The position numbers were made by a program, and so were the translations under genes. 24,080 bases of DNA from a virus, in the UHGV virus genome UHGV-1465484; one strand, 5' to 3'. This document shows, piece after piece, positions 13,682 to 22,322 of this stretch (the stretch's first letter is position 1; each line of letters opens with the position of its first letter). Below the pieces are notes generated by a model. It saw only the letters and a program-made list of their open reading frames with translations, was not told the DNA's origin and ran no database searches.

Positions 13682-14379
13682 TGCAGGATATCCGGCAGGA
13701 AACACTGAATGAATGCACCCGTGCGGAGCAGTCGGCCAGCGTGGTGCTCTGGGAAATCGACCTGACAGAGGTCGGTGGAGAACGTTATTTTTTCTGTAAT
13801 GAGCAGAACGAAAAAGGTGAGCCGGTCACCTGGCAGGTGCGACAGTATCAGCCGTATCCCATTCAGGGGAGCGGTTTTGAACTGAATGGCAAAGGCACCA
13901 GTACGCGCCCCACGCTGACGGTTTCTAACCTGTACGGTATGGTCACCGGGATGGCGGAAGATCTGCAGAGTCTGGTCGGCGGAACGGTGGTCCGGCGTAA
14001 GGTTTACGCCCGTTTTCTGGATGCGGTGAACTTCGTCAACGGAAACAGTGACGCCGATCCGGAGCAGGAGGTGATCAGCCGCTGGCGCATCGAGCAGTGC
14101 AGCGAACTGAGCGCGGTGAGTGCCTCCTTTGTACTGTCCACGCCGACGGAAACGGATGGCGCTGTTTTTCCGGGACGTATCATGCTGGCCAACACCTGCA
14201 CCTGGACCTATCGCGGTGATGAGTGCGGTTATCACGGTCCGGCAGTCGCGGATGAATATGACCAGCCGACGTCCGATATCACGAAGGATAAATGCAGCAA
14301 ATGCCTGAGCGGCTGTAAGTTTCGCAATAACGTCGGCAACTTTGGCGGCTTCCTTTCCATTAACAAACTTTCGCAGTAA
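13681..14379 (+). CDS. L: Tail tip protein gpL
   Basis: 232-aa ORF; its ATG overlaps the M stop by one nucleotide; Cys-rich C-terminal region. Confidence 0.95.
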   Translation: MQDIRQETLNECTRAEQSASVVLWEIDLTEVGGERYFFCNEQNEKGEPVTWQVRQYQPYPIQGSGFELNGKGTSTRPTLTVSNLYGMVTGMAEDLQSLVGGTVVRRKVYARFLDAVNFVNGNSDADPEQEVISRWRIEQCSELSAVSASFVLSTPTETDGAVFPGRIMLANTCTWTYRGDECGYHGPAVADEYDQPTSDITKDKCSKCLSGCKFRNNVGNFGGFLSINKLSQ

Positions 14380-14383
14380 TCCC

Positions 14384-15127
14384 ATGACAGAGACAGAATC
14401 AGCGATTCTGGCGCACGCCCGGCGATGTGCGCCAGCGGAGTCGTGCGGCTTCGTGGTGAGAGCGCCGGAGGGGGAAAGATATTTTCCCTGCGTGAATATT
14501 TCCGGTGAGCCGGAGGATTATTTCCGGATGGCTCCGGAGGACTGGCTGCAGGCAGAGATGCAGGGTGAGATTGTGGCACTGGTCCACAGCCATCCCGGTG
14601 GTCTGCCCTGGCTGAGTGAGGCTGACCGGCGGCTGCAGGTGCAGAGTGATTTGCCGTGGTGGCTGGTCTGCCGGGGGGCGATTCACAAGTTCCGCTGTGT
14701 GCCGCATCTCACCGGGCGGCGCTTTGAGCACGGGGTGACGGACTGTTACACGCTGTTCCGGGATGCTTATCATCTGGCGGGGATTGAGATGCCGAATTTT
14801 CATCGCGGGGATGACTGGTGGCGTCACGGTCAGAATCTCTATCTGGATAATCTGGAGGCCACAGGGCTGTATCAGGTGCCGTTGTCATCAGCACAACCGG
14901 GCGATGTGCTGCTGTGCTGTTTTGGTTCATCGGTGCCGAATCATGCCGCCATTTACTGTGGTGACGGCGAGCTGCTGCACCATATTCCTGAACAACTGAG
15001 CAAACGAGAGAGGTATACCGACAAATGGCAGCGACGCACACACTCCCTCTGGCGTCACCGGGCATGGCGCGCATCTGCCTTTACGGGGATTTACAACGAT
15101 TTGGCCGCCGCATCGACCTTCGTGTGA
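14384..15127 (+). CDS. K: Tail tip assembly protein gpK (JAB/MPN JAMM-type plus NlpC/P60-like domains); the canonical lambda annotation starts at the internal Met at 14528
   Basis: Frame open from 14342; ATG at 14384 lies 5 nt after the L stop; HSHPGGLPWLSEAD (H-x-H-x7-S-x2-D) at about 14585-14626; Cys/His/His-containing C-terminal half consistent with NlpC/P60. The 199-codon version would start at 14528. Confidence 0.8.
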   Translation: MTETESAILAHARRCAPAESCGFVVRAPEGERYFPCVNISGEPEDYFRMAPEDWLQAEMQGEIVALVHSHPGGLPWLSEADRRLQVQSDLPWWLVCRGAIHKFRCVPHLTGRRFEHGVTDCYTLFRDAYHLAGIEMPNFHRGDDWWRHGQNLYLDNLEATGLYQVPLSSAQPGDVLLCCFGSSVPNHAAIYCGDGELLHHIPEQLSKRERYTDKWQRRTHSLWRHRAWRASAFTGIYNDLAAASTFV

Positions 15128-15666
15128 AAACGGGGGCTGAAGCTATCCGGGCGCTGGCCACACAGCTCCCGGCGTTTCGTCAGAAACTGAGCGACGGCTG
15201 GTATCAGGTACGGATTGCCGGGCGTGATACAGGTGAAACGGAATTATCAGCCCGTCTTAATGAACCGCTGGCAAATGGTGCTGTGATCCATATCGTGCCG
15301 CGTCTGGCAGGAGCCAAAAGTGGCGGTGTGTTTCAGGCTGTGCTGGGGGCGGCTGTTATGGCGGTTGCTATATGGATGCCGGGGGTAGGAATTATGGCGA
15401 GTAATCTGCTGTTTTCTCTCGGTGCCAGTATGACGCTTGGCGGTGTTGCACAGATGCTGGCCCCTAAACCCAAAACCCCCCGCACACAGACAACGGATAA
15501 CGGCAAACAGAACACCTATTTTTCTTCACTGGATAATATGGTTGCCCAGGGCAATGTTCTGCCCGTTCTGTACGGTGAAATGCGCGTGGGATCACGTGTG
15601 GTATCTCAGGAGATCAGCACAGCAGATGAAGGTGATGGTGGTCAGGTTGTGGTGATTGGTCGCTGA
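15025..15666 (+). CDS. I: Tail tip assembly protein gpI
   Basis: 213-aa ORF overlapping the K 3' end by about 100 nt as in lambda; N- and C-terminal parts match lambda I from memory, central part differs and is about 10 codons shorter. Confidence 0.9.
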   Translation: MAATHTLPLASPGMARICLYGDLQRFGRRIDLRVKTGAEAIRALATQLPAFRQKLSDGWYQVRIAGRDTGETELSARLNEPLANGAVIHIVPRLAGAKSGGVFQAVLGAAVMAVAIWMPGVGIMASNLLFSLGASMTLGGVAQMLAPKPKTPRTQTTDNGKQNTYFSSLDNMVAQGNVLPVLYGEMRVGSRVVSQEISTADEGDGGQVVVIGR

Positions 15667-19931: not shown

Positions 19932-22322
19932 GTGGATAGGGCAGCAGTAAAAATCTCAGGTGTGCGGAAAGATGGTGCGGGAGAACCAATACAGAACTGC
20001 ACTATTCAACTGAAGGCAAAGCGTAACAGCACCACGGTACTGGTGAACACGGTGGCCTCTGAAAATCCTGATGAAGCCGGGCGTTACAGCATGGATGTTG
20101 AGTATGGCCAGTACAGCGTCACCCTGCTGGTTGAAGGTTTTCCGCCTTCACATGCCGGGACCATTACCGTCTATGAAGGCTCCAGACCAGGTACGCTGAA
20201 TGATTTTCTCGGTGCCATGACGGAAGATGATGTCATGCCGGAGGCATTGCGTCGTTTTGAACTGATGGTGGAAGAAGTGGCACGCAACGCCGAAGCCGCC
20301 TCTCAGAGCGCAGCGGCGGCAAAGAAATCCGAAACTGCAGCGGCATCATCAAAGAACGCGGCGAAAACCTCAGAAACGAATGCAGCTAATAGTGCACAGG
20401 CGGCAGCGACCTCAAAGACTGCATCGGCAAACTCCGCGACAGCAGCCAAAAAATCAGAAACCAACGCGAAAAATAGCGAGACAGCCGCAAAGACGAGCGA
20501 AACCAACGCAAAGTCCAGCCAGACGGCAGCGAAAACCAGCGAAACGAATGCCAAAGCCAGTGAAACTGCGGCAAAAAACAGCCAGGTTGCAGCAGCCCAA
20601 AGCGAGAGCGCGGCAGCCGGTTCTGCGACTTCAGCAGCTGGATCAGCAACTGCTGCGGCTAACAGCCAGAAAGCTGCGAAGACGAGTGAAACTAACGCAA
20701 AGTCCAGCCAGACGGCAGCGAAGACCAGCGAAACGAATGCCAAAACCAGCGAAACTGCGGCGAAAAACAGTCAGGATGCAGCAGCCCAAAGCGAGAGTGC
20801 TGCAGCTGGTTCTGCAAGCGCGGCGGCTGCTTCTGCCATTGCATCAGCCAACAGTCAAAAAGCTGCAAAAACCAGTGAAACCAACGCAAAGGCGAGCGAG
20901 ACTGCGGCTGCTAACTCGGCGAAAGCATCAGCTGCAAGCCAGACGGCTGCAAAAGCAAGTGAAGACGCAGCCAGGGAGTACGCAAGCCAGGCAGCAGAGC
21001 CGTATAAATATGTCTTACAGCCGCTTCCTGATGTGTGGATACCGTTTAACGATTCACTGGATATGATTACGGGCTTTTCGCCATCATATAAAAAGATTGT
21101 TATTGGTGATGATGAAATAACAATGCCTGGCGACAAGATTGTAAAGTTTAAACGCGCATCAAAAGCAACTTACATTAATAAATCTGGTGTGCTGACAGAG
21201 GCTGCAATCGATGAACCTCGCTTTGAAAAGTATGGATTGCTGATTGAAGGGCAGCGTACAAACCTGTTAATAAACAGCACAAATCCATCAAAATGGAACA
21301 AGTCATCAAATATGATTTTAAATACATCAGGTGTAGATGATTTTGGTTTCCAGTACGCAAAATTCACATTAAAACCAGAAATGGTGGGGCAAACCTCAGC
21401 CATTTCTATTGTCACAGTATCTGGAAGCAAAGGATATGATGTTACCGGCGATGAAAAGTATGTAACTATCTCATGCAGGGTACAAAGTGGGACTCCAAAT
21501 TTAAGATGTCGATTACGATTTGAAGAATATGATGGATCTACCTACAAATTCCTGGGTGATGCTTACTTAAATATGACAGATTTATCGATTGATAAAACTG
21601 GCGGCGCTGCAAGTCGTATTACTGCAAGGGCTGTTAAAAATGAAGCAAGCAAATGGATTTTCTTTGAGGCAACAATTAAGGCACTTGATACAGAAAATAT
21701 GATCGGTGCGATGGTGCAATATGCACCACCAAAAGGGGGAAGCACTGGTGCAGATGATTATATTTATGTTGCAACTCCTCAGGTCGAAGGCGGTTCGTGC
21801 GCTTCTTCGTTTATTATTACTGAGGCAACGCCAGTCACAAGAGCCAGTGATATGGTGAATATACCAACAAATAACAATATCGGTACACCACCTTTAACAT
21901 TTCTAGCTGAAGTTCATACAAACTGGAACGAAACGCCAAATGCAGCACCACGAATTTTTGATACCAGTGGTGGGAGCACAACTCCGGGTCAATATATAAG
22001 TGTTGCTATTAGTTCAACATTATTTCCTGGTGTTACGATGCACAATAAAAACGGTAGTACAGTAGCCGCCGTATCGCCAGTATTATTTGAACAAAAATCT
22101 GTTCTTGGATTTGTTTTAAATGAATCTGGTAATGTGCATTTCGTTAGCAATGCCCAGCATGGGACTCCTAAAACCACGGATCATGTCGGTGTTAAATCTG
22201 GTTATTTCTTCAGGATTGGGGGACAGACTAATAGCGGTCTACGTCATCTTTTCGGTCACATTCGTAATTTTCGTATATGGCATAAAGAATTAACCGATGC
22301 ACAAATGGGAGAGGTAATATAA
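19932..22322 (+). CDS. stf: Side tail fibre protein: lambda-Stf-like N-terminus and Ala/Ser/Thr heptad shaft fused to a non-lambda C-terminal tip with a LamG/ConA-like lectin signature
   Basis: 796-aa ORF; first start in frame is GTG at 19932 (exact start uncertain); residues ~5-120 resemble lambda Stf from memory; residues ~120-335 are KTSETNA-type heptad repeats; the remainder is AT-rich and ends in ...HIRNFRIWHKELTDAQMGEVI. Confidence 0.85.
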   Translation: MDRAAVKISGVRKDGAGEPIQNCTIQLKAKRNSTTVLVNTVASENPDEAGRYSMDVEYGQYSVTLLVEGFPPSHAGTITVYEGSRPGTLNDFLGAMTEDDVMPEALRRFELMVEEVARNAEAASQSAAAAKKSETAAASSKNAAKTSETNAANSAQAAATSKTASANSATAAKKSETNAKNSETAAKTSETNAKSSQTAAKTSETNAKASETAAKNSQVAAAQSESAAAGSATSAAGSATAAANSQKAAKTSETNAKSSQTAAKTSETNAKTSETAAKNSQDAAAQSESAAAGSASAAAASAIASANSQKAAKTSETNAKASETAAANSAKASAASQTAAKASEDAAREYASQAAEPYKYVLQPLPDVWIPFNDSLDMITGFSPSYKKIVIGDDEITMPGDKIVKFKRASKATYINKSGVLTEAAIDEPRFEKYGLLIEGQRTNLLINSTNPSKWNKSSNMILNTSGVDDFGFQYAKFTLKPEMVGQTSAISIVTVSGSKGYDVTGDEKYVTISCRVQSGTPNLRCRLRFEEYDGSTYKFLGDAYLNMTDLSIDKTGGAASRITARAVKNEASKWIFFEATIKALDTENMIGAMVQYAPPKGGSTGADDYIYVATPQVEGGSCASSFIITEATPVTRASDMVNIPTNNNIGTPPLTFLAEVHTNWNETPNAAPRIFDTSGGSTTPGQYISVAISSTLFPGVTMHNKNGSTVAAVSPVLFEQKSVLGFVLNESGNVHFVSNAQHGTPKTTDHVGVKSGYFFRIGGQTNSGLRHLFGHIRNFRIWHKELTDAQMGEVI
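20290..20980 (+). repeat. Internal coding repeat region of stf: 21-nt (7-aa) heptad units, including two ~140-bp direct copies (20487-20626 and 20676-20815) spaced 189 bp apart
   Basis: The two copies were aligned by eye and are about 90% identical; at protein level AAKTSETNAKSSQTAAKTSETNAK(A/T)SETAAKNSQ(V/D)AAAQSESAAAGSA occurs twice. Confidence 0.8.

What the first reader, a model, noticed from the sequence alone, without database searches (positions are those of the whole stretch)
14384..14600. K ORF extends upstream of the canonical start and the extension looks needed for a complete JAB/MPN domain
The H-x-H-x7-S-x2-D JAMM core (HSHPGGLPWLSEAD) lies only about 20 residues after the internal Met (14528) that corresponds to the classical 199-aa lambda K start. 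An MPN fold normally needs about 60-80 residues, including the conserved Glu, upstream of H-x-H. The frame is open upstream and an ATG at 14384 sits 5 nt after the L stop, adding 48 residues (MTETESAILAHARRCAPAESCGFVV...) with a candidate Glu (AESCG). The functional protein is therefore probably the longer form.
Basis: partly seen in the sequence, partly recalled or inferred. Interest (0 to 1): 0.4.

Follow-up and report, generated by a model that had tools for sequence, protein, structure and literature searches.

The report
Lambda tail gene K starts earlier
The phage tail-assembly gene K in this prophage really is 247 codons long and encodes a complete JAB metalloprotease domain plus an NlpC/P60 peptidase domain; the textbook 199-residue lambda K comes from one missing G in the 1982 lambda reference sequence, and modern annotations of relatives already use the long form.

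Summary
ATG 14384 lies 4 nt after the L stop and opens a 247-codon ORF ending at 15127. Met49 (14528) is the classical lambda K start. Only the long form passes Pfam Prok-JAB (52.9 bits, cut-off 25, profile 4-103/114); the short form keeps profile 63-103 (22.9 bits). The 48 extra residues carry the catalytic Glu19 and are about as conserved as the rest of the domain in 61 homologues at 33-58% identity. In 77 close relatives their dN/dS is 0.24, against 1.09 and 2.04 in the other frames. In an AlphaFold model (pLDDT 97) they form helix 1 and the first two strands of a fold matching archaeal JAMM1, Rpn11 and CSN5. Met49 is Ile in 40 of 61 homologues.

New here: J02459/NC_001416 lacks a G after position 14266, which puts the N-terminal segment out of frame. 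Independent lambda sequences, including de novo cI857 ind1 Sam7 DNA, carry the G. None of 5,426 complete E. coli genomes and none of 2.9 million viral contigs shows the deleted version. Corrected lambda K is also 247 aa.

PGAP already annotates the long form, and the JAB+NlpC/P60 architecture was published in 2006, so novelty is low. An additional short isoform from ATG 14528, which has a strong Shine-Dalgarno, is not excluded.

The parts
14384..15127 (+). Full K gene: 247 codons plus TGA stop, predicted 28.2 kDa
   Evidence: ORF listing and translation. Identical DNA is annotated as a 744-nt 'C40 family peptidase' WP_032156900.1 by PGAP. An intact 744-nt ORF is present in all 88 related loci outside the reference and its twin OR974322.
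14384..14527 (+). The 48-codon N-terminal segment missing from classical lambda K. It encodes helix 1 (res 3-15) and strands 21-27 and 30-36 of the JAB fold, including Glu19.
   Evidence: Pfam profile positions 3-51 at 24.1 bits on its own; conservation; dN/dS 0.24; pLDDT about 98 in the model.
14384..14698 (+). JAB/MPN+ (JAMM) metalloprotease domain, residues about 1-105
   Evidence: PF14464 residues 4-98; PDB 2kks aligns to residues 7-105; Foldseek match to PfJAMM1 5ld9/5lda, rmsd 2.7 A over 107-109 columns.
14438..14440 (+). Codon for Glu19 (GAG), the JAMM catalytic glutamate
   Evidence: 98% conserved in 61 homologues; aligns with the Glu of NEACG in 2kks; coordinates.
14585..14626 (+). 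H68-S69-H70-x7-S78-x2-D81 zinc-binding JAMM core
   Evidence: H68, H70 and D81 invariant; S69 97% and S78 93% conserved; coordinates.
14714..15055 (+). NlpC/P60 (C40) cysteine peptidase domain, residues 111-224; Cys121 (14744-14746), His187 (14942-14944), His199 (14978-14980)
   Evidence: PF00877, 47.2 bits against a cut-off of 23; C121, H187 and H199 at least 90% conserved; fold matches MepS/Spr and C. difficile autolysins.
14528..14530 (+). Internal ATG (Met49), the classical lambda K start; here an internal residue of the JAB domain
   Evidence: The aligned column is Ile 40, Met 9, Leu 7, Val 3 of 61; Ile in several enterobacterial relatives; ATG in 86 of 87 close relatives.
14512..14516 (+). 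GGAGG 11 nt upstream of the internal ATG (codons Pro-Glu-Asp). Probably the reason the short start was originally chosen, and a possible internal ribosome binding site.
   Evidence: Anti-SD duplex energy -9.5 kcal/mol, against +0.7 upstream of ATG 14384; lies in a small hairpin 14499-14516 that is not statistically significant.
14377..14383 (+). L stop codon TAA plus the 4-nt spacer before the K start; geometry suited to termination-reinitiation coupling
   Evidence: A stop lies 4 or 5 nt before the K ATG in all 87 related loci examined; no Shine-Dalgarno upstream.

Best explanation
Gene K of this lambda-like prophage runs from ATG 14384 to TGA 15127. It encodes a 247-residue, two-domain enzyme. 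Residues 1 to about 105 form an N-terminal JAB/MPN+ (JAMM) zinc metalloprotease domain with E19, H68, H70, S78 and D81. Residues 111-224 form a C-terminal NlpC/P60 cysteine peptidase domain with C121, H187 and H199. The first 48 residues are an integral part of the JAB fold (helix 1, strands 1-2 and the catalytic Glu) and are not an optional leader. Translation most likely starts by coupling to termination of gene L, whose stop is 4 nt upstream, because there is no Shine-Dalgarno sequence (inferred). The classical 199-residue lambda K is an annotation artefact. The 1982 reference (J02459/NC_001416) omits a G after position 14266, 10 nt before the internal ATG. That puts the N-terminal segment out of frame and left ATG 14276, which has a GGAGG in front of it, as the only plausible start. 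Functionally (inferred from published work, not shown here), K is a non-structural tail-tip assembly enzyme. Its JAB domain probably cleaves the ubiquitin-like N-terminal domain off the neighbouring gene product I at its Gly-Gly, as Iyer, Burroughs and Aravind proposed in 2006. Only the long form could do that.
For: Domain completeness: Pfam long versus short; NCBIfam desampylase-like hit on residues 3-114 for the long form only; PDB 2kks aligned to residues 7-105. Conservation: 2,737 relatives found; distant full-length ones (35-50% identity, 228-271 aa) align from query residues about 3-10; E19 98% conserved, G22 and N38 invariant, extension about as conserved as the rest of the domain. Selection: dN/dS 0.24 in frame against 1.09 and 2.04 out of frame. 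Structure: pLDDT 97, pTM 0.91, extension forms H3-15, E21-27 and E30-36; fold matches PfJAMM1 (including the entry with ubiquitin-like SAMP2), Rpn11, CSN5 and AMSH over about 108 columns, more than the 57 JAB residues left in the short form. Start geometry is conserved in 87 of 87 loci. Reference error: alignment. Whole-genome differences: MW057783 (cI857 ind1 Sam7 DNA) differs from NC_001416 only at 138 delG, +G after 14266, 37589, 37742, 43082 and 45352; LC730321 and PV340536 share both indels. The deleted 23-mer has 0 hits in IMG/VR, against at least 120 for the +G version. No complete E. coli genome matches the deleted version exactly, and the K-12 J53 lysogen has the G. Annotation: PGAP and several GenBank records nt. 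Function: gpK is absent from virions by mass spectrometry (PMC10721106). gpI is resolved only from residue 101 onward (PMC11101478), and lambda gpI has G100-G101 directly after the Pfam Lambda_tail_I domain. The JAB/Ubl processing hypothesis is in PMC1779556.
Against: There is no Shine-Dalgarno sequence before ATG 14384 (duplex +0.7 kcal/mol), whereas the internal ATG 14528 has GGAGG at an 11-nt spacing (-9.5 kcal/mol), as good as those of H and M. Both ATG49 and the GGAGG are kept in nearly all close E. coli relatives, so internal initiation may also occur. No direct protein evidence such as an N-terminal sequence or ribosome profiling could be consulted. Two public records (OR974322, OR474059) share the reference deletion, but one carries Sam7 while matching the reference at 138, 14266 and cI857, and the other is an unverified engineered construct identical to the reference over 24.5 kb, so neither is clearly independent. 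Catalytic activity and the gpI substrate are untested; an unresolved N-terminal domain in cryo-EM may simply be flexible.
Confidence: 0.9

Rival explanations
1. Two nested products are made from one frame: full-length K (247 aa) from ATG 14384, and a shorter K' (199 aa, NlpC/P60 domain plus a non-functional JAB remnant) from the internal ATG 14528 using its own GGAGG. This would resemble the nested lambda pairs C/Nu3 and S107/S105.
For: Strong SD-like GGAGG 11 nt upstream of ATG 14528 (-9.5 kcal/mol). ATG49 is present in 86 of 87 close relatives and the GGAGG in most of them. Nested in-frame genes exist in the same operon (C/nu3 in NC_001416).
Against: The GGAGG is made of codons Pro-Glu-Asp/Ala, where Pro43 is at least 90% conserved for protein reasons. 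Position 49 is Ile in 40 of 61 family members and in several E. coli, Salmonella and Yersinia relatives at 68-85% identity, so an internal start cannot be a general feature of the family. An 11-nt spacing is long for efficient initiation (textbook knowledge). The SD lies in a predicted local hairpin (weak evidence).
Confidence: 0.2
2. The classical annotation is right: the functional protein is the 199-aa form, and the upstream 144 nt are untranslated spacer or a separate small ORF. The JAB motif would then be a degenerate remnant.
For: Historical annotation in J02459/NC_001416, still copied in DE3 and lambda imm434 records and used in a 2020 review (PMC7291167). SD before ATG 14528.
Against: Purifying selection in frame. 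Invariant and near-invariant residues including the catalytic Glu. The short form fails the Pfam cut-off. The start residue is not conserved. The reference frame break is a sequence error. A 148-nt untranslated gap would be anomalous in this tightly packed operon, where H/M, M/L and L/K junctions overlap or lie within 5 nt.
Confidence: 0.02
3. Laboratory lambda truly lacks the G, so in lambda (though not in this window) K is split or needs a programmed +1 frameshift near GGAGGCTATTTCC to join the JAB N-terminal half to the rest.
For: The reference and two other records show the deletion. The lambda tail operon does use programmed frameshifting elsewhere (G/GT; established knowledge).
Against: De novo cI857 ind1 Sam7 DNA (MW057783), Lambda_AGU, lambda from MG1655 and CV601 lysogens, DE3, imm21/imm434 hybrids, HK629/HK630 and the K-12 J53 prophage all have the G. 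There are 0 exact hits to the deleted version in IMG/VR. The reference also carries a second single-base discrepancy at 138, consistent with 1982-era errors.
Confidence: 0.02

Closest known systems
Bacteriophage lambda gpK (tail tip assembly protein K; TAPK of Iyer, Burroughs and Aravind 2006)
   Same: 236 of 247 residues are identical to lambda K once the reference is corrected. Same position between L and I/J. Same JAB plus NlpC/P60 architecture as described in PMC1779556.
   Different: Nothing functional. The window simply has the intact frame, which the lambda reference record lacks because of one missing base. NC_001416 and records copied from it list 199 aa.
Prokaryotic JAMM/MPN+ proteases acting on ubiquitin-like proteins (Pyrococcus furiosus JAMM1 with SAMP2, PDB 5ld9/5lda; haloarchaeal desampylase NF041370)
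   Same: Minimal MPN+ fold of about 105-130 residues with E...HxH...S..D. Model superposes at rmsd 2.7 A, target TM 0.66. Weak NCBIfam desampylase hit on residues 3-114. A ubiquitin-like protein is encoded next door (gpI; PMC1779556).
   Different: K is fused to an NlpC/P60 peptidase and works in phage tail assembly. It scores 28.5 bits against the 130-bit desampylase cut-off, so it is not a member of that equivalog. Substrate and activity are untested.
Eukaryotic JAMM deubiquitinases Rpn11, CSN5 and AMSH
   Same: Same catalytic motif and core fold (motif listing that includes lambda K in PMC300881).
   Different: They are much larger, carry insertions (Ins-1, Ins-2) and work in large complexes. 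Sequence identity is only 13-23%.
NlpC/P60 (C40) peptidases such as E. coli MepS/Spr
   Same: The C-terminal domain matches PF00877 above its cut-off with a conserved Cys-His-His and the same fold.
   Different: K has no signal peptide or lipobox evident in its sequence (reading of the sequence) and acts in the cytoplasm during assembly. Whether it cuts peptidoglycan or a protein substrate is unknown.

Membership tests
JAB/MPN+ (JAMM) metalloprotease, Pfam PF14464 Prok-JAB | Whole-protein score above the Pfam gathering threshold, with most of the profile covered | tested here: met
   Long form 52.9 bits against 25, profile 4-103 of 114. Short form 22.9 bits, profile 63-103 only, so not met for the 199-aa form.
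JAB/MPN+ (JAMM) metalloprotease, Pfam PF14464 Prok-JAB | Catalytic motif E-x(n)-H-S/T-H-x7-S-x2-D | tested here: met
   E19, H68, S69, H70, S78 and D81 are present and 93-100% conserved in 61 homologues. E19 lies in the 48-residue extension.
JAB/MPN+ (JAMM) metalloprotease, Pfam PF14464 Prok-JAB | MPN fold | tested here: met
   AlphaFold model, pLDDT 97. Foldseek probability 1.00 to PfJAMM1, Rpn11, CSN5 and AMSH. This is a prediction, not an experimental structure.
JAB/MPN+ (JAMM) metalloprotease, Pfam PF14464 Prok-JAB | Zinc binding and (iso)peptidase activity | not testable with these tools
   Needs biochemistry. PMC300881 lists the function of lambda K as unknown.
NlpC/P60 (MEROPS C40) peptidase, Pfam PF00877 | Score above the gathering threshold | tested here: met
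   47.2 bits against 23, profile 1-105 of 105, residues 111-224.
NlpC/P60 (MEROPS C40) peptidase, Pfam PF00877 | Catalytic Cys and His residues conserved | tested here: met
   C121, H187 and H199 at least 90% conserved; D120 invariant.
NlpC/P60 (MEROPS C40) peptidase, Pfam PF00877 | Papain-like NlpC/P60 fold | tested here: met
   Foldseek hits to MepS (8xup, 8xud), Spr (2k1g) and C. difficile autolysins, target TM 0.55-0.69.
Lambda gpK / tail tip assembly protein K | High sequence identity to lambda K over the full length | tested here: met
   236 of 247 identical to corrected lambda K, 44 of 48 in the extension. phrog_30 'minor tail protein', E = 1e-162.
Lambda gpK / tail tip assembly protein K | Gene order H-M-L-K-I-J in a siphovirus tail module | tested here: met
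   Pfam Phage_min_tail, Phage_tail_L, Lambda_tail_I and GpJ FNIII-A on the neighbouring ORFs; PGAP annotation of identical DNA.
Lambda gpK / tail tip assembly protein K | Required for tail assembly but absent from the virion | not testable with these tools
   Literature only: gpK not detected by virion mass spectrometry (PMC10721106); required for assembly, location unknown (PMC12617516).
Haloarchaeal desampylase (NCBIfam NF041370) | Score above the equivalog cut-off | tested here: not met
   28.5 bits against a cut-off of 130. A homologous domain, not a member.

The most novel reading that the evidence does not exclude
The full-length JAB domain is an active ubiquitin-like-protein protease that removes the beta-grasp N-terminal domain of gpI at Gly100-Gly101 during tail-tip assembly. 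That would make lambda K/I a minimal viral 'deubiquitinase-substrate' pair. The still-current 199-aa annotation has hidden this from experimenters, who would have been working with or modelling a catalytically dead truncation. A further layer could be that the internal SD-ATG yields a second, JAB-less isoform with a separate role.
Probability: 0.35. Interest if true: 0.55.

Novelty: already known. Interest (0 to 1): 0.3.

Why it matters
For this window, nothing changes: current pipelines already call the 247-residue protein. The practical value lies in the model phage. NC_001416/J02459, and the records and papers that copy it, still give lambda K as 199 residues; one example is a 2020 review reporting HHpred on 'residues 52-182 out of 199'. 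That form lacks a third of the JAB domain, including its catalytic glutamate. Anyone who clones, models or mutates K from the reference coordinates would be studying a truncated, presumably JAB-dead protein, and variant callers would label the +G at 14266 as 'intergenic'. gpK is the one essential lambda tail protein with no known location or mechanism. Using the right N-terminus is a precondition for testing the 2006 proposal that K processes the ubiquitin-like domain of gpI.

Tried and rejected
(1) Literature. Ten full-text searches and eleven look-ups by id found no paper that states the K start correction or the 14266 discrepancy. The Casjens & Hendrix 2015 review and the Liu et al. 2013 lambda ribosome-profiling paper are not held, so prior explicit publication cannot be excluded. 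From memory, unverified: vendor notes and variant-calling tutorials for lambda cI857 ind1 Sam7 list the same six differences that I found.

(2) The search for related loci with the 61-sequence alignment on genome contigs failed because no stretch was conserved enough. As a result, L-stop/K-start geometry was examined only in close relatives.

(3) The IMG/VR loci were all at least 96% identical. The dN/dS test therefore rests on low divergence (dS about 0.09). It is backed by the deep protein alignment rather than standing alone.

(4) A terminator-like hairpin at 14499-14516 that sequesters the internal GGAGG was found, but such sites occur at the rate expected by chance (2 found, 1.0 +/- 1.0 expected). 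I give it little weight.

(5) I considered that lambda might truly carry the deletion, giving a split K or a programmed frameshift. I rejected this after the whole-genome comparisons and the population scans.

(6) I considered modelling a natural K-I fusion to test docking of the gpI tail into the JAB site. I did not run it, because the tool returns no coordinates or contacts, so the result could not be evaluated.

Full report
**Observation.**
- Gene L ends with TAA at 14377-14379. Four bases (TCCC) follow, then ATG at 14384.
- The frame stays open to TGA at 15125-15127, giving 247 codons and a predicted 28.2 kDa protein.
- Codon 49 is ATG at 14528. Starting there gives 199 residues (22.9 kDa), the length of K in the lambda reference.
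- The JAMM core is H68-S69-H70-x7-S78-x2-D81 (nt 14585-14626). The Glu of AESCG is E19 (nt 14438-14440).

**Is the extension part of the domain?** Yes, by four independent lines.
- *Profiles.* The long form matches Pfam Prok-JAB over profile positions 4-103 of 114 at 52.9 bits (cut-off 25). The short form matches only positions 63-103 at 22.9 bits, below the cut-off. The 48-residue piece alone scores 24.1 bits on positions 3-51. A solved bacterial JAB protein (2kks) aligns to residues 7-105 and places its NEACG on AESCG. The C-terminal half is an NlpC/P60 domain in both forms.
- *Conservation.* An exhaustive search found 2,737 relatives. Distant full-length ones (35-50% identity) align from query residues about 3-10, starting at about residues 3-15 of their own sequences. 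In an alignment of 61 of them (228-271 aa), G22 and N38 are invariant, and P17, E19, C21 and F47 are at least 90% conserved. The extension is about as conserved as the rest of the JAB domain, with mean top-residue frequency 0.43-0.45 against 0.48. The column under Met49 is Ile in 40, Met in 9, Leu in 7 and Val in 3. It is Ile even in E. coli, Salmonella and Yersinia relatives at 68-85% identity. I chose full-length hits for this alignment, so the presence of an N-terminal region is partly by construction. Its residue-level conservation is not.
- *Selection.* Among 77 distinct 744-nt sequences from related loci, codons 1-48 have dN/dS 0.24, against 0.125 for codons 49-247. The same bases read in the other two frames give 1.09 and 2.04. 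Variable sites fall 10/4/23 by codon position.
- *Structure.* An AlphaFold model built on the 61-sequence alignment has mean pLDDT 97.0 and pTM 0.91. Residues 1-48 form helix 3-15 and strands 21-27 and 30-36 at pLDDT about 98. Foldseek matches the N-terminal domain to Pyrococcus furiosus JAMM1, including the entry where it is bound to ubiquitin-like SAMP2 (rmsd 2.7 A over 107-109 columns, target TM 0.66), and to Rpn11, CSN5 and AMSH. The C-terminal domain matches MepS/Spr and other NlpC/P60 enzymes. A match of about 108 columns cannot be made by the 57 JAB residues that remain in the short form.

**Why lambda K was called short.** In NC_001416, K is annotated 14276..14875, which leaves 148 nt after L. 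Translating the reference upstream of 14276 hits a stop. ATG 14133, five bases after the L stop, opens MTQTESAILAHARRCAPAESCGFVVSTPEGERYFPCVNISGEPE..., but in another frame.
- Alignment shows that the reference reads GGAGGC-TATTTCC where the window, phage 21 and ev207 have one more base.
- Lambda imm434, Lambda_AGU, lambda from an MG1655 lysogen, DE3 and lambda from K-12 CV601 all read GGAGGCGTATTTCC.
- Across the phage collection, only J02459, NC_001416, OR474059 and OR974322 match the reference exactly. All other listed lambda-type records are one base longer over this stretch.
- Whole-genome comparison: MW057783, deposited as a 'Campylobacter phage', differs from NC_001416 at exactly six positions: 138 delG, +G after 14266, 37589 C>T, 37742 C>T, 43082 G>A and 45352 G>A. 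From memory, 37589, 37742 and 45352 are the ind1, cI857 and Sam7 markers. That makes it laboratory lambda cI857 ind1 Sam7 DNA, which I recall as the genotype used for the 1982 sequence, assembled independently. LC730321 and PV340536 share both indels.
- OR974322 carries Sam7 but matches the reference at 138, 14266 and cI857. OR474059 is an unverified engineered construct identical to the reference over its first 24.5 kb. Neither is convincing independent support for the deletion.
- Of 5,426 complete E. coli genomes, 4,330 match this region. The best matches are all 99.6% over 232 nt, meaning they carry the G, and they include the K-12 laboratory strain J53. PGAP calls K there at 744 nt.

I conclude that the missing G is an error in the reference sequence. 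Corrected lambda K is 247 aa and is 236/247 identical to the window protein.

**State of annotation and literature.**
- The long form is already annotated for DNA identical to the window (WP_032156900.1, 'C40 family peptidase'), for phage 21 and ev207, and for lambda in PV340536 and MW057783.
- The short form persists in NC_001416, DE3 and lambda imm434, even where the frame is open, and in a 2020 review that analysed '199 in total'.
- The JAMM motif of lambda K was noted by 2004.
- The JAB plus NlpC/P60 architecture, and its link to the ubiquitin-like gpI, were described in 2006.
- I found no paper that states the start correction or the 14266 error, but the key lambda review and the ribosome-profiling paper were not available.

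**Mechanism.**
- *Shown here:* both peptidase domains keep their catalytic residues across the family.
- *From the literature:* gpK is needed for tail assembly but is not detected in virions.
- *Inferred:* the JAB domain processes gpI. Pfam Lambda_tail_I, the ubiquitin-like domain of Iyer et al., covers residues 14-97 of the I ORF and is followed by KSGG. In lambda the glycines are G100-G101. One cryo-EM study resolves gpI only from residue 101 and another from residue 135. This fits cleavage at the Gly-Gly but equally fits a flexible domain.
- *Start of translation (inferred):* initiation at 14384 is probably coupled to termination of L. There is no Shine-Dalgarno (duplex energy +0.7 kcal/mol), and a stop lies 4-5 nt upstream in all 87 loci examined.

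**Caveat and rival.** The internal ATG has GGAGG 11 nt upstream (-9.5 kcal/mol). Both are retained in nearly all close E. coli relatives. A second, shorter isoform is therefore possible; I put it at about 0.2. It cannot be a general property of the family, because position 49 is usually Ile.

**Verdict.** The finding is correct but not new as biology. Its value is as a documented correction to the reference lambda genome and to the gpK entry that much of the literature still uses.

Noticed in passing
window 15025-15666 (gene I); alternative starts at 15064 and 15124: The start of gene I is annotated three different ways in public records. ATG 15025 is the classical 223-aa type; it has a good SD (-9.3 kcal/mol) and overlaps K by 103 nt. 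ATG 15064 is the PGAP call. GTG 15124 overlaps the K stop (GTGTGA) and is used for lambda in PV340536 and the J53 prophage. The Pfam Lambda_tail_I domain begins at residue 14 of the longest form.
   Followed up: partly
L213 (NC_001416) position 138: The lambda reference has an extra G at position 138 compared with every independent lambda sequence examined (LC730321, PV340536, MW057783). This is a second single-base discrepancy, near cos and upstream of nu1.
   Followed up: partly
L216 (MW057783.1) and L212 (OR974322.1), whole records: 'Campylobacter phage CJLB-4' (poultry faeces) and 'Escherichia phage Lambda isolate P6/2022/SA' (chicken cloacal swab) both carry the laboratory Sam7 amber mutation. 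CJLB-4 also carries the cI857 and ind1 positions. They look like laboratory lambda DNA in the samples rather than environmental phages.
   Followed up: partly
L213 (NC_001416) 14133-14363; PHROGs phrog_7305: In the uncorrected lambda reference, ATG 14133 opens an artefactual 76-codon ORF (JAB N-terminus followed by out-of-frame residues). phrog_7305 ('unknown function') has a 76-position profile that matches K residues 1-76, so that PHROG may be built from this artefactual ORF.
   Followed up: partly
proteins P0014, P0015, P0023, P0031, P0033, P0047, P0093, P0117: Database proteins fuse L to K (PF05100+PF14464+PF00877) or K to I (PF14464+PF00877+PF06805), with 1-11 members each. They may be frameshifted or pseudogene calls in draft genomes, or the natural TAPI-TAPK fusions mentioned by Iyer et al. 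2006.
   Followed up: no
L214 (LC730321.1), reference position 20833: Lambda_AGU has an extra C at reference position 20833, inside orf-401 of the side-tail-fibre region. As I recall, laboratory lambda carries a frameshift in stf relative to Ur-lambda, so this stock may have an intact stf.
   Followed up: no
whole window; L004 (NZ_CP042896.1): Over the 901 nt compared (window 14300-15200), the window is 100% identical to a lambda-like prophage of E. coli CFSAN061771 (raw-milk cheese, Egypt). That prophage lies next to appY, ompT, envY and nfrA and carries a complete head-tail module from nohD/terminase to the tail-fibre genes.
   Followed up: partly
L078 1501-2244: One IMG/VR relative has HSHH instead of HSHP directly after the zinc-binding histidines (Pro71 is 89% conserved in the family). 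The ORF is otherwise intact.
   Followed up: no
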